Source: a virus (lineage: Duplodnaviria > Heunggongvirae > Uroviricota > Caudoviricetes). From it: a DNA stretch of 64,000 bases. Below the pieces are notes generated by a model. It did no database searches. It was not told the origin of the DNA and was given only the letters and a program-made list of their open reading frames with translations. Positions 42,274 to 64,000 of this stretch are shown piece by piece. Position 1 is the stretch's first letter. Each line of letters begins with the position of its first letter. Location of the stretch: the IMG/VR virus record IMGVR_UViG_3300045988_003495; one strand, given 5' to 3'. Position numbers and translations under genes: made by a program.

Positions 42274-43059
42274 ATGGGTATTGTAAAAATCATCAAAGGT
42301 GATATCTTTGACGCCTTTGATAAAGGTAAGTTTGACATCATTGGTCATGGTTGTAACTGTATGAATTTAATGGGTGCAGGTATTGCAGCAACTATTTCTA
42401 AGCGTTATCCAAAAGTGTATGATACTGACACAGAAGTTTACCTGTTTGCAGGTGGCATTCGTCACAAACCCTGTGAAAATTTACTAGGTAATTTCTCTGT
42501 AGCACGTTTAAAACAAGGCCGTATAGCTAACCTTTACACCCAACTTCATACTGGTAAAGATGCCCGATACAGTGCTTTAGAGTCATCCTTGAAACAGCTT
42601 AACAGATACTGTGAAGTTAACCAGTTGAAGAAAGTTGGTCTACCTATGATTGGTGCAGGTATCGGTGGACTTGACCCTCAAGCTGTCACAGTTATCATTA
42701 ATCAGGTGATGAAGAGTGTAGATGTTTATCTGTATGTCTATGAAGCAAAAATGTATAATGAGTTACACTCAGGTTGGAAAAACTACTGTGAACCAGAATA
42801 CTTTGCAGGTGTAGTTGTGTTCACAGATAACGCAGTTACCCTCTTCAGACGAAGAAAAGGTAAGATACATCAAAGTAACCCTCCGGTTGAAAAGATGTCT
42901 CTAAGTAACGCTCTAGTTACCCACCTGTCGAAGAGCAATCACAGAATTGCAGTAACATTTGGCAGTGATGCAGATGCTTATATCTATGCAAGAACTGATG
43001 AGGATATTGAGTTAATCCTCTCTTCACCAGAACTTACCTTCTTAGACGCAAAGAACTAA
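42274..43059 (+). CDS. macro-domain protein (ADP-ribose binding/processing)
   Basis: N-terminal GDIFDAF...DIIGHGCNCMNLMGAGIAATI resembles the macro-domain glycine-rich ADP-ribose pocket. Confidence 0.5.
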   Translation: MGIVKIIKGDIFDAFDKGKFDIIGHGCNCMNLMGAGIAATISKRYPKVYDTDTEVYLFAGGIRHKPCENLLGNFSVARLKQGRIANLYTQLHTGKDARYSALESSLKQLNRYCEVNQLKKVGLPMIGAGIGGLDPQAVTVIINQVMKSVDVYLYVYEAKMYNELHSGWKNYCEPEYFAGVVVFTDNAVTLFRRRKGKIHQSNPPVEKMSLSNALVTHLSKSNHRIAVTFGSDADAYIYARTDEDIELILSSPELTFLDAKN

Positions 43060-57536: not shown

Positions 57537-58130
57537 TTAAGCTTTGGTCTTAAGTAGGTTCTTAAGTTTTTTAAGATTCATACTCTCATCAAACTTAAAA
57601 CCAAATCCATTGACATAATCAATGAACTCGGATTTCTTACTGAGTGACAATGCGTAACTCATATCAAAGTTCTTACTTGTTTCTGCGTCTGGACTAGAGT
57701 TCACATCAAATGAAATTTCTGTAGGCTCTTGTTTACTTTTTCTCATATTATCAACCAACAAACATGTATAGTTTGCTGGATAGAAATTTACACTACCATC
57801 AACGTAGCTGTATTTATTATTATTATGGATAAGGTTGGAAAATACCTTAAGGAATGTTTCTGAGTCGTGGCAAACAAGTTTGAATTGGCTGCTCTCTCCA
57901 AGTGCAACTAATGAGTACGGACTTTCACTATCGAAGTCATAGTTTGGATTCGATGTCGTCACTGTTACACGCATCAAGTTATTAGCAATAGTCTTCTGTT
58001 TAAAAGAATTTTGAACATAGTGAAGACCTCTCTCACACTGATTGACTAGCTCTTTAAGTAGGTCATTTGCATATGGTGAATTAATTGATACAGAGCCATC
58101 ACTATTGTAATTAAAACTTACTGTTAACAT
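57537..58130 (-). CDS. hypothetical protein
   Basis: 197-aa ORF. Confidence 0.45.
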   Translation of the reverse strand: MLTVSFNYNSDGSVSINSPYANDLLKELVNQCERGLHYVQNSFKQKTIANNLMRVTVTTSNPNYDFDSESPYSLVALGESSQFKLVCHDSETFLKVFSNLIHNNNKYSYVDGSVNFYPANYTCLLVDNMRKSKQEPTEISFDVNSSPDAETSKNFDMSYALSLSKKSEFIDYVNGFGFKFDESMNLKKLKNLLKTKA

Positions 58131-58357
58131 TTTTCAGTTCTCCTGCGATTTATAATTTTGCTGCAATAGAGAAACGAAGTAAACTCACTGGAAGAAACCA
58201 TTAAGTGTTGTTCACTAGATTGAGCCATTGCCCTGAAATACATTCCAGTCAAAGCATCATAGTGACTATTCTTTCCAATTGAGGTTATATAGCCATGACT
58301 CTTTGCAGTTTGATATAAATCTATAATATCTGCGATTTCTAATTGGGAACTACACAT
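58124..58357 (-). CDS. hypothetical protein
   Basis: 77-aa ORF. Confidence 0.35.
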   Translation of the reverse strand: MCSSQLEIADIIDLYQTAKSHGYITSIGKNSHYDALTGMYFRAMAQSSEQHLMVSSSEFTSFLYCSKIINRRRTEKC

Positions 58358-58521
58358 AGATAATCCTCTTGTCTTCTGTAATTTTGAAAGAACAGGTACA
58401 GACCAATTTCAGAGGATGAATAGTAGATTAACTCTACCCTTTTTGATTCCTTACAGTGATTGGTATTCTTACCTTTCTTCGGTTTATTTGATTTTCTCAT
58501 TAAGTCTCCTTTGTAGAACAA
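58339..58521 (-). CDS. hypothetical protein
   Basis: 60-aa basic ORF, first gene of minus-strand block. Confidence 0.3.
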   Translation of the reverse strand: MFYKGDLMRKSNKPKKGKNTNHCKESKRVELIYYSSSEIGLYLFFQNYRRQEDYLCVVPN

Positions 58522-58749
58522 GGCAGACCTACAGCTTTAAGTAAGATGGTACAGTAATCCATACAACAAGTCAAGAACTATTGCAAGTTAAAAAAGTTGT
58601 TGACAAAGTACTTGACAAGGTGTAGGCTTATAAATACTTAGAAGATAACTTAAAAGGTTCCTCTAAAAAGGCTATTTAAACAGATATCTTTCTGGATATC
58701 TATCTTTTATCTTAAAAGCCTTTTAAGAGGTCTTATAAGAGGCATACCA

Positions 58750-59121
58750 ATGAAAAACAGAACAAACAAAGGCCAGTTTAAAAAAGGCCAGTCTGGAAAC
58801 CCATCTGGAAGACCAAAAGGCTCTCGTAACAAAAGCTCACTCGTAAAAGCTCAACTGACCATTGATAATTCTGCTGAGTTCGCTGCAAAGCTGTTTGAGG
58901 CGATTGTTACAAGGGACGCGGCTAAGCTTGCAGAGTTCGGTTTAAACACAGATGACGTAACCATCAAGAGCATGATTGAGGTCGGTAAAACTATCTTTAC
59001 TCACTCAGCAGGTGAGATGAAAGCACTTGCAGCAGACACTAAGAAGACTCCTGATAATGGTGGTCAACAACAGACAGATAACAAACCAACGTTCTCTGCT
59101 GTAGCGACTCTCAAAAAATAA
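58750..59121 (+). CDS. hypothetical protein with N-terminal GQSGNPSGRPKG motif
   Basis: 123-aa ORF. Confidence 0.45.
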   Translation: MKNRTNKGQFKKGQSGNPSGRPKGSRNKSSLVKAQLTIDNSAEFAAKLFEAIVTRDAAKLAEFGLNTDDVTIKSMIEVGKTIFTHSAGEMKALAADTKKTPDNGGQQQTDNKPTFSAVATLKK

Positions 59122-59202
59122 TTTTAAAAGATGTTGACAGACTCTACAGAGTTGCTCTAAAGTCTGTCACATCAAACAACAAATGAGAGAAGAGAGTAAA
59201 AT

Positions 59203-60618
59203 ATGAGCGAATTATTTAAACATGCGCACCTTCATGCAGGTCGAACTGAAAATGGTGCTGTAAACCATACTTCATCAATGTCTGCTCTTGTAGACTTTTA
59301 CAAAGCTGCTGGTTCAAGCCGTAGCAATGTAGAAATCTTACCAGACCTGTTCTACAAAGCTTTGCGTGAGGATGTTGATGTTGCAGTCCGTATTTTACTG
59401 CATATGCGAGATGTACGAGAAGGTATGGGTGAGCGTAAAGCCTTCAGAACTGTTTTGCTTCAAGCAATTGAAGACAAAGTTTTAGAGCCTACACAGGTTC
59501 TTCGCATTATGGATAAGATTGCAGAGCTTGGTCGCTTTGATGACTTCAAAATCTTTGTAGGTACTCGTTTCGAGACAGATGCCTTCAAACATTTAGAAGC
59601 AGCATTACTAGACCCTGCAACAGCAGGTTTAGCAGCTAAGTGGTTACCACGAGTCAAACCACGTCATAAGCAGTTTGTAAAACGTTTCTGCAAGTTTGCC
59701 AACTTGAGTGAGAAAGAGTACCGCACACTGTTGTCTGCACTATCTGATACAGTTGAGCAAAAAATCTCTGCTAATGAGTTTGGTAAGATTGACTACAGCA
59801 AGATTCCTTCACTTGCTGCTGCACGTTACCAAAAACTGTTTAACCGTAAGGATGGAGAACGCTACAAAGCTTACATTGAGTCTTTATCAAAGGGCGAGGC
59901 TAAGATTAATGCTGGTGCTGTTTACCCATACGATGTGATTAAATCTGTCAAGCATGGTAATGCAGATGTTGCCAATGAGCAGTGGAAAGCACTACCAAAC
60001 TGGATGGCAGAAGGTGAGAACATCTTGTGTATGACTGATGTTTCAGGCTCAATGTCTTGGGTGAATCTTGGTTCAATCACTGCCCTTGATATTGGTGTAT
60101 CACTTGCCTTGTATGTAGCAGAACGTAATACAGGTTGCTTTAAGGATGAGTTAATGGTTTATTCAACAAACCCTTACTTCATCGAACTGAGTGGTGATTT
60201 ACGAAACCGCCATCGTCAGGTGATGCGACATGTTGAATATGGCTCAACTAACCTACAAGCAGCTTTTGACCGCATTCTTGAGGTAGGTAAGAGAAACAAC
60301 TTGACTCAGAAAGATATGCCAAGTAAGCTTATCATCTTCTCCGATATGGAGTTCAATCAGGTTGATGGAGCTAACGGTCGTACAAACTTTGAAGCAATTC
60401 AGAGTAAGTACAAAAAAGCTGGATACGAGATGCCACAACTGGTATTCTGGTACTTAGCAAACCGTAATGGTACTTGCGAAGTGTCTGTTAAGGATAACGG
60501 TGTAGCGATGGTATCTGGTTTCTCTCCAGCCACTTTAAAAGCTCTGATTGGTGGTGAGAAGTTTGACCCAATCAGCGTAATGCTCAAAGCAGTAATGATT
60601 GACCGTTATATCTGGTAA
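59203..60618 (+). CDS. vWA-domain protein with helical N-terminal domain; candidate Ro60-like (TROVE/DUF2828-type) RNA-binding protein
   Basis: 471 aa; MIDAS-type motif ILCMTDVSGSMSW (DxSxS) with downstream Thr and Asp; helical N-terminal half; sits directly upstream of Y-RNA-like elements in the tRNA cluster. Confidence 0.5.
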   Translation: MSELFKHAHLHAGRTENGAVNHTSSMSALVDFYKAAGSSRSNVEILPDLFYKALREDVDVAVRILLHMRDVREGMGERKAFRTVLLQAIEDKVLEPTQVLRIMDKIAELGRFDDFKIFVGTRFETDAFKHLEAALLDPATAGLAAKWLPRVKPRHKQFVKRFCKFANLSEKEYRTLLSALSDTVEQKISANEFGKIDYSKIPSLAAARYQKLFNRKDGERYKAYIESLSKGEAKINAGAVYPYDVIKSVKHGNADVANEQWKALPNWMAEGENILCMTDVSGSMSWVNLGSITALDIGVSLALYVAERNTGCFKDELMVYSTNPYFIELSGDLRNRHRQVMRHVEYGSTNLQAAFDRILEVGKRNNLTQKDMPSKLIIFSDMEFNQVDGANGRTNFEAIQSKYKKAGYEMPQLVFWYLANRNGTCEVSVKDNGVAMVSGFSPATLKALIGGEKFDPISVMLKAVMIDRYIW

Positions 60619-60636
60619 AAAGTTTTAAAAAGGGTA

Positions 60637-60665
60637 TTGACAATGTGTTTGATACCCTTTAATAT
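60637..60665 (+). promoter_or_regulatory. strong sigma70-type promoter (TTGACA-N17-TAATAT) driving the tRNA cluster
   Basis: -35 at 60637-60642, -10 at 60660-65; inverted repeat gggtat/ataccc flanks the -35 and spacer. Confidence 0.55.
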
Positions 60666-60783
60666 GTTCTACATAGAAACGAAACGAGAGCTTTTCTAAG
60701 ATACTGAAAAATATTTTAAAAAAGTTCTTGACAACCACTAAAAAATAATGTTAAAGTGGTTACATAGAGTTTGAAAAGTTTAT

Positions 60784-60860
60784 CTCTGTTTAGCTCAGCT
60801 TGGTAGAGCGTTCCGTTTGGGGCGGTAAGGCCGGAGGTTCAATTCCTCCAACAGAGACCA
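60784..60860 (+). tRNA. tRNA-Pro (anticodon TGG)
   Basis: acceptor ctctgtt/aacagag, D-stem gctc/gagc, T-arm ggagg-ttcaatt-cctcc, encoded CCA. Confidence 0.7.
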
Positions 60861-60867
60861 AATTAAT

Positions 60868-60945
60868 GTTCCAGTAGACAAAATGGTATAGTCACCACTC
60901 TTTCAAAGTGGATATTTGAGGGTTCAAATCCCTTCTGGAACGCCA
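60868..60945 (+). tRNA. tRNA-Glu (anticodon TTC)
   Basis: acceptor gttccag/ctggaac, anticodon stem ccact/agtgg with loop ctttcaa, T-loop ttcaaat, CCA. Confidence 0.7.
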
Positions 60946-60950
60946 GTTTT

Positions 60951-61027
60951 GACAGAAGACCAATTACAGCAAACTTAATCTTATTCATCTGAAGGTAAAT
61001 CGGACAAAGAAGAGATTTGGTCTGGTC
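60951..61027 (+). ncRNA. Y-RNA-like structured element A
   Basis: 5' motif gaCAGAAGACCaattACAGCAAac pairs with 3' motif tTTGGTCTGGt (agaccaa/ttggtct) enclosing about 55 nt. Confidence 0.45.
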
Positions 61028-61036
61028 ATTAAGAAT

Positions 61037-61113
61037 TGCGGGTATAGAGAAAGGGCGTCTCACATGTCTCATTAGCATGGTATCGGCAGGTTCGACTCCT
61101 GCACCCGCCTCCA
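61037..61113 (+). tRNA. tRNA with CAT anticodon (Met or Ile2 type)
   Basis: anticodon stem catgt/gcatg, loop ctcatta, D-stem gaga/tctc, T-arm gcagg-ttcgact-cctgc, CCA; 5' end ambiguous by 1 nt (possible 1:72 mismatch). Confidence 0.6.
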
Positions 61114-61116
61114 AAT

Positions 61117-61180
61117 TTACAGAAGACCGTATGCAGCAACAAACTACTTTTTGCGGATAAAAGAAAAAACACGGTCTGGC
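61117..61180 (+). ncRNA. Y-RNA-like structured element B
   Basis: 5' tACAGAAGACCGTatgCAGCAAcaaac pairs with 3' aacACGGTCTGGc. Confidence 0.45.
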
Positions 61181-61190
61181 AATGTATTAA

Positions 61191-61267
61191 GGTTAGGAAG
61201 CACATAAGGTATGTGCGGTCGCCTGTTAAGCGAATGGCACAGGGTTCGAATCCCTGACTAACCGCCA
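61191..61267 (+). tRNA. tRNA-Asn (anticodon GTT)
   Basis: acceptor ggttagg/actaacc, D-stem gcac/gtgc, anticodon loop ctgttaa, T-arm caggg-ttcgaat-ccctg, CCA. Confidence 0.7.
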
Positions 61268-61276
61268 AATTTAAAT

Positions 61277-61364
61277 GTGTCGTTATCCCGTAGATGGTAG
61301 CGGTGGGGACTGTAAATCCCTTGTCATTGAGACTCGGTAGGTTCGACTCCTACACGGCACACCA
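61277..61364 (+). tRNA. tRNA-Tyr (anticodon GTA), long variable arm
   Basis: acceptor gtgtcgt/acggcac, anticodon stem gggga/tccct, loop ctgtaaa, 15-nt variable arm, T-arm gtagg-ttcgact-cctac, CCA. Confidence 0.7.
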
Positions 61365-61386
61365 ACACTTAGCGAGATACTTAGTT

Positions 61387-61788
61387 ATGAGAGATGAAGT
61401 ATACAAATCACAACTTGGTATGAGTTTGGGAACTGCACAAAACAGACTAGTAAAAGATTTGCTATTCGATTTTATATGTAAGACAAATCAAAATAGATGT
61501 TTTCAGTGCGGAAAAGAAATGACTAGGGATGATTTCTCTATCGAGCATAAGACTCCGTGGAGACACAAAGATAATGCAAAAGAACTTTTCTTTTCACTAG
61601 ATAACATTTCTTATAGCCACCTGCGTTGCAACATGAAAGCAGCCAGACCAGCACAGATTTATGATAGAAAGCCTAAGCCAATTAAACACGGCACTGCACA
61701 CAGCTACTCTAAAGGTTGCAGATGTGATGAGTGTAGGCTGGCTAAGAATGCTGAGGGTAGGAAGCACTATAACCCCAGAAAGGCGTAG
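61387..61788 (+). CDS. HNH endonuclease inside the tRNA cluster
   Basis: CFQCGKEMTRDDFSIEHKTPW ... CRCDEC; ORF-track start 61294 overlaps tRNA-Tyr, so ATG at 61387 preferred. Confidence 0.55.
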   Translation: MRDEVYKSQLGMSLGTAQNRLVKDLLFDFICKTNQNRCFQCGKEMTRDDFSIEHKTPWRHKDNAKELFFSLDNISYSHLRCNMKAARPAQIYDRKPKPIKHGTAHSYSKGCRCDECRLAKNAEGRKHYNPRKA

Positions 61789-61820
61789 GAAGAAGTATTT
61801 AAGAAATGGCACATAGTTTT

Positions 61821-61896
61821 GGGGTATTAGTTTAGACGGTGAAAATACGGGATTATCTCTCCTGAGCCGCGAGTTCGATTCTCACATACCTCGCCA
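61821..61896 (+). tRNA. tRNA of undetermined identity (anticodon loop ttatctc, nominal anticodon ATC)
   Basis: good acceptor ggggtat/atacctc, D-stem gttt/aaat, T-arm gcgag-ttcgatt-ctcac, CCA; anticodon loop has pyrimidine at position 37 and A at 34. Confidence 0.5.
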
Positions 61897-61954
61897 ATTT
61901 TGAGAGGGCTATTTAGCCCCTCCCTTAAAGAGTTCTTACGAGTATCCTTTAAAG

Positions 61955-62034
61955 GAGCAGAAGACCAAATACAGCAAGTTACTTAAAATTTCAAGCCAAT
62001 TCAATTTTGAAAAATTTAAAACTTGGTCTGGCTC
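61955..62034 (+). ncRNA. Y-RNA-like structured element C
   Basis: 5' gCAGAAGACCaaatACAGCAAg pairs with 3' aaCTTGGTCTGGc. Confidence 0.45.
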
Positions 62035-62042
62035 AACAAATT

Positions 62043-62177
62043 TACAGAAGACCGTTTACAGCAAAACTTAAACAATCTATTTCTCGGTAAAGAAAAGGCG
62101 AAGGTTCGATTCCTTCACTCGGCAGATGTCGAGTTGGTGTAATGGTAGCACTTAAGATGATAAACAACGGTCTGGTA
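62043..62177 (+). ncRNA. Y-RNA-like element D with embedded circularly permuted tRNA-like module (YrlA-like)
   Basis: terminal helix agaccgtt (62047-54) with aacggtct (62165-72); inside: T-arm gaagg-ttcgatt-ccttc (62100-62116), acceptor-like helix actcggc-agat-gtcgagt closed by 4-nt loop (62117-62134), D-arm gtgt-aatggta-gcac (62137-62151); no anticodon arm. Confidence 0.55.
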
Positions 62178-62278
62178 ATTATCTTTGCAGTAGCTTATGT
62201 GGCTAATTATGTCGTCCCATGAGTGCCGATGAATTTCCTTAGCATGATTCTAGATTAGCTTAGTAGGAAATGACTCTA

Positions 62279-62299
62279 CAGACCCTTTAGCAAGGTCTG
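62279..62299 (+). ncRNA. minimal hairpin sharing the CAGACC...GCAA...GGTCTG motif
   Basis: cagacc-ctttagcaa-ggtctg. Confidence 0.3.
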
Positions 62300-62326
62300 C
62301 GTAGGTTACTGCAAAGGCAATTTAAT

Positions 62327-62402
62327 GGAAGTGTAGCAGAATGGTGATGCGGCAGACTTTTAATCTGACAGGCGATGGGTTCGAATCCCTCCACTTCTAC
62401 CA
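62327..62402 (+). tRNA. tRNA-Lys (anticodon TTT), tentative
   Basis: acceptor ggaagtg/cacttct, anticodon stem caga/tctg, loop cttttaa, T-loop ttcgaat, CCA; T-stem and D-stem weak. Confidence 0.55.
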
Positions 62403-62406
62403 AAAT

Positions 62407-62483
62407 GGTTCAGTCGCAGATAAGGTAATGCAGGGGTCTCATAAGCCCTATGAATGTGGGTTCGATTCCCATCTGAACCTCCA
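62407..62483 (+). tRNA. tRNA with CAT anticodon (Met/Ile2/initiator type)
   Basis: acceptor ggttcag/ctgaacc, anticodon stem ggggt/gccct, loop ctcataa, T-arm gtggg-ttcgatt-cccat, CCA. Confidence 0.65.
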
Positions 62484-62485
62484 AT

Positions 62486-62560
62486 TGTGGGTTAGCATAA
62501 ATGGTAATGCAAACGGCTGATAACCGTTAGAAGAGGGTTCGATACCCTCACCTACAACCA
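62486..62560 (+). tRNA. tRNA-Ile (anticodon GAT)
   Basis: acceptor tgtgggt/acctaca, D-stem gcat/atgc, anticodon stem aacgg/ccgtt, loop ctgataa, T-arm gaggg-ttcgata-ccctc, CCA. Confidence 0.8.
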
Positions 62561-62575
62561 ATTTCAATAAAGTTG

Positions 62576-62604
62576 TTGACATTGATACGTGACTACTTTA
62601 TAGT
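62576..62604 (+). promoter_or_regulatory. internal sigma70-type promoter (TTGACA-N17-TATAGT)
   Basis: -35 at 62576-62581, -10 at 62599-62604. Confidence 0.55.
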
Positions 62605-62808
62605 AACCTTAGTTTTCGTTGCGTAGCGTCTATTTTGCAAATTTAAAATAAATGCAAACGACAATGTTTTTCTGGCAGTAGCTTGATAGGCTAAACACCA
62701 GTGAGGTCTTCCAATCCCTCATCAAAGAATTTGGCGTACTAGCCCACGGTATGATTAATAAGGTGGGCATCTTTAAGGGCTTTCTAAGAGAGTCTTTAAA
62801 GATAATTA

Positions 62809-62890
62809 CGGGGCGTATCTCAGCTGTCTTCTAAACAGCCGTTAACCGAGTAAGTGGAGTATGCGGGTTCGAGTCCTGCCGCCTCGACCA
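62809..62890 (+). tRNA. tRNA-like gene, possibly tRNA-Arg (anticodon TCT), atypical
   Basis: canonical anticodon arm gctgt-cttctaa-acagc, T-arm gcggg-ttcgagt-cctgc, acceptor cggggcg/cgcctcg, CCA; only 7 nt where D-arm should be, and about 23 nt between anticodon arm and T-arm. Confidence 0.35.
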
Positions 62891-63033
62891 ATTTAGTTAG
62901 CAGATTACTTAGACGACCTAAGCGGGTCTTCCTGTAGGGAGGTGGTCTGTATCTCATGTTTTCCAGAACATGTAAATAATCTGAGAAGGGGCTTTACAGT
63001 GTTGCGAAAATACGGTAAGCTTCGAATTATAGT

Positions 63034-63116
63034 GTGGGACGATGTTAAGACTCTAAGGCATGAGCAACGGCCTCCAAAACCGTTTCAAAGGGGTTCAACT
63101 CCTCCGTCCCATGCCA
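63034..63116 (+). tRNA. tRNA-like gene, possibly tRNA-Trp (anticodon CCA), atypical length
   Basis: acceptor gtgggac/gtcccat, anticodon stem aacgg/ccgtt with loop containing cca, T-loop ttcaact, CCA; D-region 6 nt too long. Confidence 0.35.
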
Positions 63117-63129
63117 AAGTCTTATTAGG

Positions 63130-63217
63130 GGTAGGTAGCGGCTAATGGCAGCCAAACAGTCTTGAAAACTGTTGCCACTGTAGAGATACGGTGAGGGTTC
63201 GACTCCTTTACTTACCG
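63130..63217 (+). tRNA. tRNA-Ser (anticodon TGA), class II, CCA not encoded
   Basis: acceptor ggtaggt/acttacc, anticodon stem acagt/actgt, loop cttgaaa, 20-nt variable arm, T-arm gaggg-ttcgact-ccttt. Confidence 0.6.
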
Positions 63218-63375
63218 CCTAATAAGATTTAAAGCCAAGCTTCATTCGGATGTTGCTTTGGTATCCCTCGTGTATTGTCGTACACGCACAGTAAAGCACC
63301 TAGTAGGTGTCACGGAGAAGAGATAATATCAAGCTCTCCAAAGGTTCTAGTCACCGGATTAAACAAGACTATGCA

Positions 63376-63396
63376 AAGACCAAATTAGGTCTTTTT
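63376..63396 (+). terminator. hairpin plus T-run inside the tRNA cluster
   Basis: aagacc-aaatta-ggtctt followed by ttt. Confidence 0.4.
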
Positions 63397-63475
63397 AGAG
63401 GGCTTCTAAGGTTATTACAGCTTGTTGTGGAACCTTGTTGCTTAGGTTCTTAGAAGTTCTCTAAAAAGATTTAAT

Positions 63476-63553
63476 GGGAGATTGACGGTAATTGGTAAAC
63501 CTACCATCCTTAGAAGTTGGTGTTTGAGGGTTCGAATCCCTTGTCTCCTACCA
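63476..63553 (+). tRNA. tRNA-like gene, anticodon arm ambiguous (possibly TAG)
   Basis: acceptor gggagat/gtctcct, T-arm gaggg-ttcgaat-ccctt, CCA; D and anticodon arms pair poorly. Confidence 0.35.
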
Positions 63554-63560
63554 AATTAAT

Positions 63561-63636
63561 GCAGGTGTAGCAAAATGGTTATGCGGCTGACTCTTAATCA
63601 GTAAGACGATGGGTTCAATTCCCTCCACCTGTACCA
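63561..63636 (+). tRNA. tRNA-Lys-like paralog (anticodon CTT), tentative
   Basis: acceptor gcaggtg/cacctgt, anticodon stem gctga/tcagt, loop ctcttaa, T-loop ttcaatt, CCA; close paralog of 62327..62402. Confidence 0.5.
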
Positions 63637-63642
63637 AACATT

Positions 63643-63718
63643 GGGGATGTAGTTTACATGGTTAAAACATAAGTTTTGCAAACTTAAGTACAGGGTTCAA
63701 TTCCCTGCTTCTCCACCA
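63643..63718 (+). tRNA. tRNA-Ala (anticodon TGC)
   Basis: G3:U70 pair in acceptor (ggggatg/cttctcc), D-stem gttt/aaac, anticodon stem taagt/actta, loop tttgcaa, T-arm caggg-ttcaatt-ccctg, CCA. Confidence 0.8.
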
Positions 63719-63724
63719 ATTAGT

Positions 63725-63799
63725 GCATCCATAGTTTAAACGGGAAAATTACAGTCTTCCAAACTGAGGTTGAGGGTTCGATTCCCTCTGGATGCTCCA
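63725..63799 (+). tRNA. tRNA-Gly (anticodon TCC)
   Basis: acceptor gcatcca/tggatgc, anticodon loop cttccaa, T-arm gaggg-ttcgatt-ccctc, CCA. Confidence 0.75.
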
Positions 63800-63806
63800 A
63801 ATTAAT

Positions 63807-63882
63807 GCTCCTATCGTATAATTGGCTATTACGGTTGCCTTGTAAGCAACTTATCAGGGTTCGAATCCTTGTGGGAGCACCA
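63807..63882 (+). tRNA. tRNA-Thr (anticodon TGT)
   Basis: acceptor gctccta/tgggagc, anticodon stem gttgc/gcaac, loop cttgtaa, T-arm caggg-ttcgaat-ccttg, CCA. Confidence 0.8.
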
Positions 63883-64000
63883 ATTCAGAGGCCAAGTGAA
63901 AGACCGCTGGTGTCAACTGAAGACCGTAACAAATTCCACGGAGTTGAGTTAGCGGCACAACTTCAGACCTCTTTCATACTCGCTTAGTTTATATGGTAAA

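What the first reader, a model, noticed from the sequence alone, without database searches (positions are those of the whole stretch)
59203..62177. Candidate Ro60-like protein gene sits directly upstream of a family of Y-RNA-like elements in the tRNA cluster
The 471-aa protein (59203..60618) has a C-terminal vWA fold with a MIDAS motif (TDVSGSMSW) behind a long helical N-terminal half, the domain order of Ro60/TROVE and DUF2828 proteins. Within 2 kb downstream, between the tRNAs, are at least four elements (60951-61027, 61117-61180, 61955-62034, 62043-62177) with the same conserved ends: 5' CAGAAGACC-RWWT-ACAGCAA and 3' YGGTCTGG, which pair into a bulged terminal helix. Bacterial Ro60 orthologs bind Y RNAs through such a conserved terminal helix, and Ro60 and Y-RNA genes are normally adjacent. 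A phage Ro60/Y-RNA module interleaved with a tRNA cluster could serve RNA quality control, tRNA protection, or interference with host RNA-based defences.
Basis: partly seen in the sequence, partly recalled or inferred. Interest (0 to 1): 0.85.

Follow-up and report, generated by a model that had tools for sequence, protein, structure and literature searches.

The report
Phage Ro60-like protein with Y-RNAs
A Felix O1-type phage carries a ring-shaped Ro60-like RNA-binding protein gene and, just downstream between its tRNA genes, four small structured RNAs of the Y-RNA kind (one a tRNA mimic). The same pairing recurs in many unrelated phages and probably forms an RNA-protein particle used against host defences.

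Summary

**RNA elements.** There are exactly four elements (60951-61027, 61118-61181, 61956-62033, 62043-62177). They share:
- a 3-bp outer helix;
- an AGA/G internal loop;
- a 7-8 bp helix;
- then U-RCAGCAA.

Element 4 carries a permuted tRNA core (V hairpin, T arm, closed acceptor hairpin, D arm), which is the YrlA architecture.

**Conservation.** The module WGRNYNN-N-U-NCAGCAA...helix-G lies on the gene strand next to DUF2828 genes in 15 of 15 Felix-like loci and at least 38 of 67 other phage loci, mycobacteriophages included.
- Covariation is very strong: 95% of cells paired against 61% when shuffled, and 22 of 23 pairs show changes on both sides.
- Rfam YrlA does not hit the window's elements, and the canonical CGAA motif is absent.

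**Verdict.** This is a distinct Y-RNA class for a divergent Ro60 branch. Expression and protein binding remain untested.

The parts
59134..59163 (+). sigma-70-like promoter in front of the Ro60-like gene (TTGACA-18-TAAAGT), with an inverted repeat spanning the -35 to -10 region
   Evidence: 10 of 12 consensus matches. This is a pattern match only.
59203..60618 (+). Ro60-like protein gene, 471 aa. The N-terminal alpha-helical repeat half is DUF2828; the C-terminal vWA domain with a complete MIDAS motif is DUF7788.
60637..60757 (+). two sigma-70-like promoters (60637-60665 and 60728-60757) that would drive the tRNA/Y-like RNA cluster
   Evidence: These are pattern matches only.
60951..61027 (+). 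Y-RNA-like element 1 (short class, 77 nt), between tRNA-Glu and tRNA-Met. Outer helix GAC/GUC, inner helix 60957-60963 with 61017-61023, ACAGCAA at 60966-60972.
   Evidence: covariance model R1 29.7 bits, E 4e-6
61118..61181 (+). Y-RNA-like element 2 (short class, 64 nt), between tRNA-Met and tRNA-Asn. Inner helix 61124-61130 with 61171-61177, GCAGCAA at 61133-61139.
   Evidence: R1 27.8 bits, E 1.2e-5
61956..62033 (+). Y-RNA-like element 3 (short class, 78 nt). Inner helix 61962-61968 with 62023-62029, ACAGCAA at 61971-61977. It is absent from several close relatives.
   Evidence: R1 24.3 bits, E 1e-4
62043..62177 (+). Y-RNA-like element 4 (tRNA-like, YrlA-type class, 135 nt). Inner helix 62049-62056 with 62166-62173, ACAGCAA at 62058-62064.
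   Evidence: four-way junction, z -2.1; orthologues keep the acceptor hairpin through compensatory changes: ACUCGGC/GUCGAGU, ACACGU/GCGUGU, ACCCUUC/GAAGGGU; not a tRNA by ARAGORN
62100..62151 (+). permuted tRNA core inside element 4: T arm 62100-62116 (GAAGG-UUCGAUU-CCUUC), closed 7-bp acceptor-like hairpin 62117-62134, U8/G9 at 62135-62136, D arm 62137-62151 (GUGU-AAUGGUA-GCAC). A V hairpin lies upstream at about 62080-62095.
   Evidence: (the Rfam tRNA model aligns the T arm plus the 3' acceptor strand only)
60784..61896 (+). flanking tRNA genes (Pro, Glu, Met, Asn, Tyr, Asp). Their processing would release elements 1 and 2 from the precursor. Also present is an inserted HNH homing-endonuclease ORF (61387-61788).
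   Evidence: The HNH ORF is absent at this site in Bas63.

Best explanation
The window carries a phage version of the Ro60/Y-RNA ribonucleoprotein module.

**The protein.** The 471-aa protein is a divergent Ro60 of the DUF2828/DUF7788 branch: a ring of helical repeats closed by a vWA domain with a MIDAS site.

**The RNAs.** The four elements between the tRNA genes are its likely RNA partners.
- *Inferred:* they are transcribed with the tRNAs from the promoters at about 60637 and 60728. RNase P and the tRNA 3'-end machinery acting on the neighbouring tRNAs then release them.
- *Supported by covariation:* each folds so that its 5' and 3' ends form a 3-bp outer helix, an AGA/G internal loop and a 7-8 bp helix, followed directly on the 5' strand by U-RCAGCAA.
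- *Inferred from conserved adjacency and from analogy with Ro60/Y RNA:* this constant module is the protein-binding site.
- The variable interior is the effector module. It is a simple hairpin in elements 1-3 and a tRNA mimic in element 4.
- *By analogy with YrlA:* the tRNA mimic could engage tRNA-recognising enzymes or PNPase.

**The output.** The particle most likely works in RNA surveillance or counter-defence during infection. The near-identical Bas63 gp130 has been shown experimentally by others to neutralise the Ppl defence system. Whether the RNAs take part in that activity is unknown.
For: **Fold**
- The AF2 model has pLDDT 86.4.
- The top 12 Foldseek PDB hits are all Ro60/TROVE at full length.
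- The MIDAS residues are invariant.
- Homologues in mycobacteriophages (34% identity, same Pfam domains) are annotated 'Ro-like RNA binding protein'.

**RNA in the window**
- Four motif copies are found where 0.2 are expected.

**RNA module across phages**
- Across the window plus 82 loci, 36% of + strand RCAGCAA sites have a Watson-Crick helix of 7 bp or more that starts exactly 9 nt upstream and is closed by a G. The figure is 1.5% in shuffles and 3.5% on the opposite strand.
- The module is present in 15 of 15 Felix-like loci and at least 38 of 67 other loci encoding the protein family.
- Covariance model R1, built only from Felix-like copies of element 4, finds elements beside the gene in distant phages: L020 61.5 bits (E 3e-12), L063 59 bits, and a mycobacteriophage at 36 bits (E 9e-6). 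Of its 49 hits, 47 are on the gene strand.
- On that alignment 95.1% of cells pair, against 60.7% when shuffled and 33-46% when the partners are slid. 22 of 23 pairs show changes on both sides.

**Link to YrlA**
- Rfam YrlA reaches the homologous elements of Krypton555, L020 and L025 at 36-38 bits.

**Literature**
- Y RNAs lie within 4 kb of Ro60 genes, on the same strand, in 254 bacteria and 22 phages, and they mimic tRNA (PMC4201824).
- The phiLo phage Ro60 binds two adjacent Y-like RNAs and host PNPase (PMC12135203).
- Bas63 gp130 is Ro60-like and counters Ppl (PMC11482910). It is 97% identical to the window protein.
Against: - There are no expression data, and no binding data for this protein with these RNAs.
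- TROVE is not detectable by sequence.
- Rfam Y_RNA and YrlA do not hit any of the four elements, even at E<=10 on element 4 alone.
- The canonical Ro-binding motifs (GGUCCGA, GNCGAA) are absent.
- Minimum-free-energy z-scores of the short elements are unremarkable, -0.5 to -1.6.
- The pair counts were made on a model-fitted alignment, which leans towards the structure.
- gp130 expressed alone from a plasmid, or inserted into T7, rescues T7 on a ppl host. At least that activity therefore does not need the phage's own Y-like RNAs.
- 29 of 67 non-Felix loci showed no element by my criteria.
Confidence: 0.75

Rival explanations
1. The protein is a stand-alone anti-defence protein that works through its ring or vWA/MIDAS surface on a host protein such as Ppl. 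The four elements would then be unrelated structured spacers of the tRNA operon, for example processing or stability signals.
For: gp130 alone restores T7 plaquing on ppl hosts (PMC11482910). The short elements do not fold better than shuffles. Other non-tRNA spacers in the same cluster are also highly structured.
Against: The same helix plus NCAGCAA module accompanies the gene in phages that have no tRNA cluster at that site: mycobacteriophage Krypton555 and L021-L044. It keeps the gene's strand (47 of 49 hits). It occurs nowhere else in the 64 kb window or in 47 kb of Bas63.
Confidence: 0.12
2. The module is a cis-acting operator for the Ro-like protein on precursor or messenger RNA, controlling tRNA-operon processing or the protein's own translation. 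It would not be part of stable trans-acting small RNAs.
For: In several distant phages a mini-version (helix, ACAGCAA, helix) sits in the 5' UTR of the gene itself, with the 3' strand at or over the ribosome-binding site or start codon. Examples are L018 4966-5005 over the AUG, and L026, L029, L067 and L082 (R1 hit at L026 4950-4987).
Against: In the window the four copies lie downstream of two further promoters, not in the gene's leader, and no copy is found in its 5' UTR. Element 4 and its relatives keep a full tRNA-like domain through compensatory changes. That would be pointless for a simple operator and matches stable YrlA RNAs.
Confidence: 0.1
3. The elements are selfish or decaying DNA: miniature inverted-repeat elements, or relics of tRNA genes duplicated within the cluster.
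For: The ends are imperfect inverted repeats. Copy number varies between close relatives (2-4 copies). A homing endonuclease gene sits in the same cluster.
Against: Across lineages the helix sequence changes completely while complementarity, the exact 9-nt spacing to the motif, G2-C and the 3' G are all kept. The motif is strand-specific: 182 + strand sites against 33 - strand sites. The interiors of the four copies are unrelated to one another.
Confidence: 0.03

Closest known systems
Bacterial Rsr (Ro60) with YrlA/YrlB Y RNAs (Salmonella, Mycobacterium smegmatis; Chen et al. 2014, PMC4201824; Rfam RF02553)
   Same: - A ring-plus-vWA protein is encoded on the same strand, within a few kb of two or more small RNAs.
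- One RNA (YrlA here, element 4 in the window) has a tRNA-like domain in permuted order: V arm, T arm, closed acceptor hairpin, D arm.
- The other RNAs are shorter and lack that domain (YrlB here, elements 1-3 in the window).
- The 5' and 3' ends pair into the stem that carries the presumed protein site.
[quoted passage not shown]
   Different: - The protein is DUF2828/DUF7788, with no detectable TROVE sequence signature.
- The RNA lacks GNCGAAN0-1G. Instead it has an extra terminal module, a 7-bp helix followed by U-NCAGCAA, lying outside the region covered by the YrlA model.
- RF02553 does not score the window's elements at all.
- Four RNAs are interleaved with tRNA genes in a phage tRNA operon. 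This is not an rsr-rtcBA operon.
Thermus phage phiLo phiRo60 with Yrl1/Yrl2 (PMC12135203; PDB 9KOP, 9L5Y)
   Different: phiLo's protein is a recognisable TROVE protein. Its RNAs lie upstream of the gene and carry the CGAA motif in a bulge. No tRNA-like RNA or tRNA-cluster context was described.
Escherichia phage Bas63 (JohannRWettstein) gp130 (PhageMaP preprint, PMC11482910)
   Same: It is the orthologue: 97% identical, at the same position in front of the same tRNA series. It has been reported to resemble Ro60 structurally and to counter the Ppl defence.
   Different: The authors guessed that some annotated tRNA genes might be Y RNAs. The Y-like RNAs are in fact the unannotated spacers between the tRNAs. 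In Bas63 element 4 is overlapped by a minus-strand 'hypothetical protein' call.
Mycobacteriophage 'Ro-like RNA binding protein' (e.g. Krypton555 gp56, cluster L type)
   Same: Same protein family (34% identity, DUF2828+DUF7788). It is followed by three elements with the same module, UGGAC-NN..-ACAGCAA ... GUCCA-G. The middle element is tRNA-like and is hit by Rfam YrlA at 38 bits.
   Different: There are three RNAs in a plain intergenic gap, not interleaved with tRNAs, and the helix sequence is different. The RNAs are not annotated in the record.

Membership tests
Ro60 / TROVE protein family | Fold: a toroid of alpha-helical (HEAT-like) repeats followed by a vWA domain with a MIDAS motif | tested here: met
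Ro60 / TROVE protein family | Sequence match to the Pfam TROVE model or to solved Ro60 sequences | tested here: not met
   Pfam gives only DUF7788 (3e-43) and DUF2828 (1e-29), with no TROVE hit at E<=0.1. phmmer and profile searches of PDB sequences find no Ro60.
Ro60 / TROVE protein family | Binds Y RNA on the outer ring surface and RNA ends in the central cavity | not testable with these tools
   Needs RIP, EMSA or a solved structure.
Pfam DUF2828 + DUF7788 (PHROG 850) | Scores above the curated cut-offs of both models | tested here: met
   148 bits against a cut-off of 27.1, and 104 bits against 29. PHROG 850 E 1e-183.
Y RNA (general definition) | A small RNA whose 5' and 3' ends form a stem with a bulge or internal loop, encoded near the Ro60 gene on the same strand | tested here: met
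   The elements lie 0.3-1.6 kb after the gene's stop codon, on the + strand.
Y RNA (general definition) | Conserved Ro-binding sequence (metazoan GGUCCGA, bacterial GNCGAAN0-1G) | tested here: not met
   The sequence has U-RCAGCAA instead. No Rfam Y_RNA or YrlA hit.
Y RNA (general definition) | Accumulates as a discrete RNA bound by Ro60 | not testable with these tools
   No expression or binding data were found.
YrlA (Rfam RF02553) | tRNA-like domain in the order V arm, T arm, closed acceptor-like hairpin, D arm, enclosed by the terminal stem | tested here: met
   Element 4 only: MFE fold; a model with these helices recovers relatives; T, acceptor and D helices are 93-97% paired with compensatory changes.
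YrlA (Rfam RF02553) | Reaches the family's gathering score (69 bits) | tested here: not met
   No hit on element 4 at E<=10. Related phage elements reach only 36-38 bits.
tRNA | Cloverleaf with an anticodon arm and free acceptor ends | tested here: not met
   ARAGORN finds nothing at 62030-62190. The Rfam tRNA model scores 15.7 bits, for the T arm and 3' acceptor strand only.

The most novel reading that the evidence does not exclude
DUF2828-type Ro60 paralogues and a dedicated 'CAGCAA-class' of Y RNAs could form a widespread phage counter-defence ribonucleoprotein that has not been described as such.

- The constant helix plus U-NCAGCAA module docks the ring protein.
- Interchangeable effector modules (simple hairpins, a tRNA mimic, or domains of 165-262 nt, most of them about 240-260 nt) aim it at different RNAs or enzymes.
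- The particle would protect or clear the tRNA pool attacked by host nucleases, Ppl-type defences included.
- Mini-copies in the gene's own leader would provide autoregulation.
Probability: 0.25. Interest if true: 0.8.

Novelty: new variant of a known kind. Interest (0 to 1): 0.62.

Why it matters
Ro60/Y-RNA particles are a long-studied but poorly understood RNA-surveillance system, and the function of the tRNA-like domain of bacterial Y RNAs is still unknown.

- **A tractable system.** Here the module sits in Felix O1/Bas63-type phages, which are easy to handle genetically. The protein already has a measurable phenotype there (it counters Ppl), and the RNAs can now be deleted or mutated at known coordinates.
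- **A defined RNA signature.** The work sets out a conserved module (7-bp helix, U, NCAGCAA, 3' G) for the large DUF2828 branch, which has more than 3,500 proteins in the database searched. This gives a concrete candidate for how a Ro60-like ring recognises its RNA without the classical motif.
- **Annotation fixes.** These spacers are unannotated, or are mis-called as small reverse-strand ORFs, in hundreds of phage records.

Tried and rejected
- **Rfam, window region.** A scan of 58000-64000 at E<=1, and of element 4 alone at E<=10, gave no Y_RNA or YrlA hit.
- **PDB sequence searches.** Neither the single sequence nor the family profile hit any Ro60.
- **NCBIfam.** Nothing useful.
- **First helix test.** Allowing G-U pairs made it too permissive, because shuffles gave 7-8 bp helices as often as the real sites did. 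I replaced it with a test requiring Watson-Crick pairs plus a 3' G.
- **MAFFT alignments of distant tRNA-like elements.** These misaligned the 3' strands (A2 and A3). I used a covariance-model alignment instead.
- **A fifth candidate.** A 211-nt element (AGAGCCAU-UU-GCAGCAA...AUGGCUCU-G) lies about 5.3 kb after the gene start in Felix-like loci, beyond the window's end. I rejected it as probably coding because its variation looks like third-codon-position change.
- **An operator in the window gene's own leader.** None was found. The inverted repeat at 59136-59170 is a feature shared by the other phage promoters, and R1 scores it below 9 bits.
- **Literature gaps.** The supplementary tables of Chen 2014 and the 2020 Annual Review were not available. 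I therefore could not check whether any DUF2828-type phage was in their list of 22 phages.
- **Transcriptomics.** Searches for Felix O1-type small-RNA data found nothing relevant.


Full report
**What the window is.** The region belongs to a Felix O1-type myovirus (Felixounavirus). 260 phage records match 59203-62400, and 235 of them cover most of it at 84-96% identity. The gene at 59203-60618 is followed by a tRNA cluster, of which ARAGORN tRNAs from 60784 to 63882. Sigma-70-like promoters lie at 59134, 60637, 60728 and 62576.

**Checking the observation.**
- The pattern CAGAAGACC-N5-CAGCAA occurs four times in 64 kb, all on the + strand, at 60953, 61120, 61958 and 62045. About 0.2 matches are expected, and no shuffle out of 100 reached four.
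- GGTCTGG follows each copy.
- Read from the sequence, each element has four parts:
  - an outer 3-bp helix;
  - a 5' AGA / 3' G internal loop;
  - an inner 7-8 bp helix, AGACCNN(N)/(N)NNGGUCU;
  - then one or two bases and RCAGCAA.
- The variable helix positions covary among the four copies (AA/UU versus GU/AC). So does the outer helix among copies and orthologues (GAC/GUC, UAC/GUA, UGC/GCA, AGC/GCU).

**The protein.**
- Pfam assigns DUF2828 (N-terminal half) and DUF7788 (a vWA-like C-terminal half), not TROVE. PHROGs calls the family 'RNA-binding protein'.
- Sequence searches of the PDB find no Ro60.
- An AlphaFold model built from 36 diverse homologues has pLDDT 86.4 and pTM 0.86.
- Foldseek against the PDB returns Ro60/TROVE structures as its 12 best hits, all aligned over the full length. 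Thermus phage phiLo Ro60 scores E 5e-9 and Xenopus Ro60 has TM 0.61. Only vWA domains follow.
- The MIDAS residues are invariant.
- The family is large, with more than 3,500 database proteins and 710 phage records. It includes mycobacteriophage proteins that are 34% identical, carry the same Pfam domains and are annotated 'Ro-like RNA binding protein'.
- The protein is 97% identical to Bas63 gp130. A 2024 preprint reported that gp130 resembles Ro60 structurally and counters the Ppl defence system, and that it can be moved into T7 and still work (PMC11482910).

**The RNAs in the window.**
- Element 4 (62043-62177) folds into the terminal stem plus a four-way junction. The junction holds a V hairpin, a T arm (GAAGG-UUCGAUU-CCUUC), a closed 7-bp acceptor-like hairpin (ACUCGGC-AGAU-GUCGAGU) and a D arm (GUGU-AAUGGUA-GCAC).
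- This is a circularly permuted tRNA and is exactly the YrlA layout described by Chen et al. 2014 (PMC4201824).
- ARAGORN does not call it a tRNA.
- Orthologues in related phages keep the acceptor hairpin through compensatory changes (ACACGU/GCGUGU, ACCCUUC/GAAGGGU).
- Elements 1-3 are 64-78 nt long and have only simple hairpins inside.

**The RNAs across phages.** I fetched 80 viral loci encoding relatives of the protein at 39-99% identity, plus Yersinia phage P778 and mycobacteriophage Krypton555.
- ACAGCAA is six-fold enriched on the gene strand: 182 + strand sites against 33 - strand sites.
- 36% of + strand RCAGCAA sites have a Watson-Crick helix of 7 bp or more that begins exactly 9 nt upstream and closes 15-260 nt downstream, followed by G. 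The figure is 1.5% for shuffled downstream sequence and 3.5% on the other strand.
- The helix sequence differs freely between lineages (AGACCAA, AGGUUCC, UGGACAC, AGAUUGA, UGUAUAC and others). Four features were not imposed by the search yet are conserved: G2-C, a U before the motif, an A-rich run before the 3' strand, and U or G after the closing G.
- The elements fall into three size classes: 53-72 nt, 110-137 nt (tRNA-like) and 165-262 nt.
- They lie directly downstream or upstream of the gene in all 15 Felix-like loci and in at least 38 of 67 other loci.
- Krypton555 has three in the gap after its Ro-like gene, and the middle one is tRNA-like.

**Covariance-model test.**
- Model R1 was built only from six Felix-like copies of element 4, using the terminal helix, T arm, acceptor hairpin and D arm as structure.
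- It recovers elements beside the gene in distant phages: L020 61.5 bits (E 3e-12), L063 59 bits, L079, L041, and Krypton555 at 36 bits (E 9e-6). Of its 49 hits, 47 are on the gene strand.
- In the window it finds the four elements and nothing else. In 47 kb of Bas63 it finds the orthologous copies between the tRNAs.
- On the resulting alignment 95.1% of cells are paired, against 60.7% after shuffling and 33-46% when partners are slid. 22 of 23 pairs show changes on both sides.
- The alignment is fitted to the model, so these numbers lean towards the structure. The margin is nevertheless very large, and the independent test agrees.
- The motif tolerates some variation: UCAGCAA, GCAGCAA, ACUGCAA, UCCGCAA.

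**Relation to known Y RNAs.**
- Rfam YrlA (RF02553) does not hit the window's elements.
- It does hit the homologous tRNA-like elements of Krypton555 (38.3 bits), L020 (38.2 bits, full length) and L025 (35.8 bits), all below its gathering score of 69.
- The alignment shows that the YrlA model covers the tRNA-like core and an inner stem. The 7-bp terminal helix and the ACAGCAA motif lie outside its 5' end.
- These phage RNAs therefore share the effector core of YrlA but carry a different terminal module. It stands in for the GNCGAA motif that Chen et al. proposed as the Rsr site and that phiLo's Yrl1/2 also carry.
- A different RNA module paired with a divergent protein branch is what one would expect if that module is the protein's binding site. 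This is an inference, not a demonstration.

**Mechanism proposed.**
- *Shown:* the fold of the protein; the existence, structure and conservation of the RNA module; its genomic coupling to the gene; and, from the literature, the anti-Ppl activity of the orthologue.
- *Inferred:* co-transcription with the tRNAs, and release by RNase P and tRNA 3'-end processing.
  - Element 1 starts 6 nt after tRNA-Glu and ends 9 nt before tRNA-Met.
  - Element 2 starts 5 nt after tRNA-Met and ends 9 nt before tRNA-Asn.
- *Inferred:* binding of the ring protein to the helix/CAGCAA module, and use of the variable modules to recruit partners. The tRNA mimic is a candidate ligand for tRNA-handling enzymes or PNPase, as in the Rsr-YrlA-PNPase complex.
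- *Open:* what the particle does. gp130 alone rescues T7 on ppl hosts, so the RNAs are not required for that phenotype. They may broaden or regulate the activity instead.

**Rivals.** I considered three alternatives:
- a protein that acts alone beside unrelated spacers;
- a purely cis-acting operator role, suggested by mini-copies in the gene's 5' UTR in other phages;
- selfish repeats or tRNA relics.

The conserved coupling, the strand specificity, the exact spacing and the compensatory changes argue against the first and third. The second may be true in addition, in other phages. In the window, however, no copy lies in the gene's leader.

**Novelty.**
- The concept (phage Ro60 plus Y RNAs) is known, and the Ro60-likeness of this very protein is published.
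- What I did not find in Rfam 15 or in the searchable literature:
  - the identification of the actual RNAs in Felix O1-type phages;
  - the definition of a conserved, non-canonical terminal module shared across the DUF2828 branch;
  - its three size classes.
- The PhageMaP authors looked for the Y RNAs among the annotated tRNAs. They are in fact the unannotated spacers, and in Bas63 one is overlapped by a reverse-strand ORF call.
- I rate this a new variant of a known kind, of moderate to high interest because it is directly testable in a system that already has a phenotype.

Noticed in passing
window 62180-62326: A 147-nt non-tRNA spacer folds into a three-way junction closed by a helix of about 18 bp (CUUUGCAGUAGCUUAUGU / GCGUAGGUUACUGCAAAG). 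MFE is -48.7 kcal/mol and the z-score is -3.8. It has no Rfam match and lacks the CAGCAA module. It may be another structured RNA of the tRNA cluster.
   Followed up: partly
window 62605-62810 and 63220-63476: Two more long spacers fold far better than shuffles.
- 62605-62810 has z -4.7 and starts right after the promoter at 62576-62604.
- 63220-63476 has z -3.8 and contains a hairpin of about 30 bp at 63385-63474.

Only weak tmRNA-type Rfam hits below threshold were found.
   Followed up: partly
window 62809-62887 and 63036-63110: These are tRNA-like sequences that ARAGORN misses. The Rfam tRNA model gives 31.2 bits at 62809-62887, and Bas63 annotates tRNA-Arg(AGA) at the corresponding place. 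There is a weak tRNA-Sec-type hit at 63036-63110.
   Followed up: no
window 61387-61788: An HNH homing-endonuclease ORF (PHROG 23251) is inserted between tRNA-Tyr and tRNA-Asp. It is absent at this site in Bas63 and in relatives that cover only about 84% of the query, so it is a mobile insertion.
   Followed up: partly
window 59134-59170, 60629-60660, 60728-60770: Each of the three phage promoters carries an inverted repeat running from the -35 hexamer to the -10 region (for example GACAGACU...AGUCUGUC, GGGUAU...AUACCC, AACCACU...AGUGGUU). This looks like a shared promoter or operator feature and is unrelated to the Y-like RNAs.
   Followed up: no
L018 4966-5007, L019 about 4965, L026 4950-4987, L029 about 4947, L067 4903-4945, L082 about 4909: In several distant phages, including KVP40-like Vibrio phages, a miniature copy of the module (helix, ACAGCAA, helix, G) sits in the 5' UTR of the Ro-like gene itself. 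Its 3' strand lies next to or over the ribosome-binding site or start codon; in L018 the AUG is inside the helix. This suggests translational autoregulation by the protein.
   Followed up: partly
L021 6471-6723, L033 4793-5034, L042 6521-6764, L025 4019-4280, L069 4435-4675, L081 4289-4534, L018 1595-1843: This is a long class (240-262 nt) of elements with the same terminal helix and ACAGCAA module but a large interior. The interior is partly conserved and is not tRNA-like. No Rfam family matches. Its effector domain is unknown.
   Followed up: partly
L084 (Bas63, MZ501086) 42748-43022: The annotated minus-strand 'hypothetical protein' bas63_0137 (42748-42900) overlaps the orthologue of element 4 (42781-42908, R1 153 bits), so that CDS call is probably spurious. 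The adjacent bas63_0138 (42912-43022) lies just beyond the element and was not examined.
   Followed up: partly
L070 7192-7316: One element encloses a tRNA-like sequence in normal rather than permuted order, inside the same terminal helix and ACAGCAA module. This recalls the different orientation of Deinococcus Yrn1.
   Followed up: no
L001 (Yersinia phage P778) 8680-8809, 9144-9211, 9788-9880: This more distant Ounavirinae-like phage (protein 53% identical) also has three elements interleaved with its tRNAs. They carry GGACU.../...AGUCC helices and the motif variants ACCGCAA, ACAGCAA and UCAGCAA. None is annotated.
   Followed up: partly
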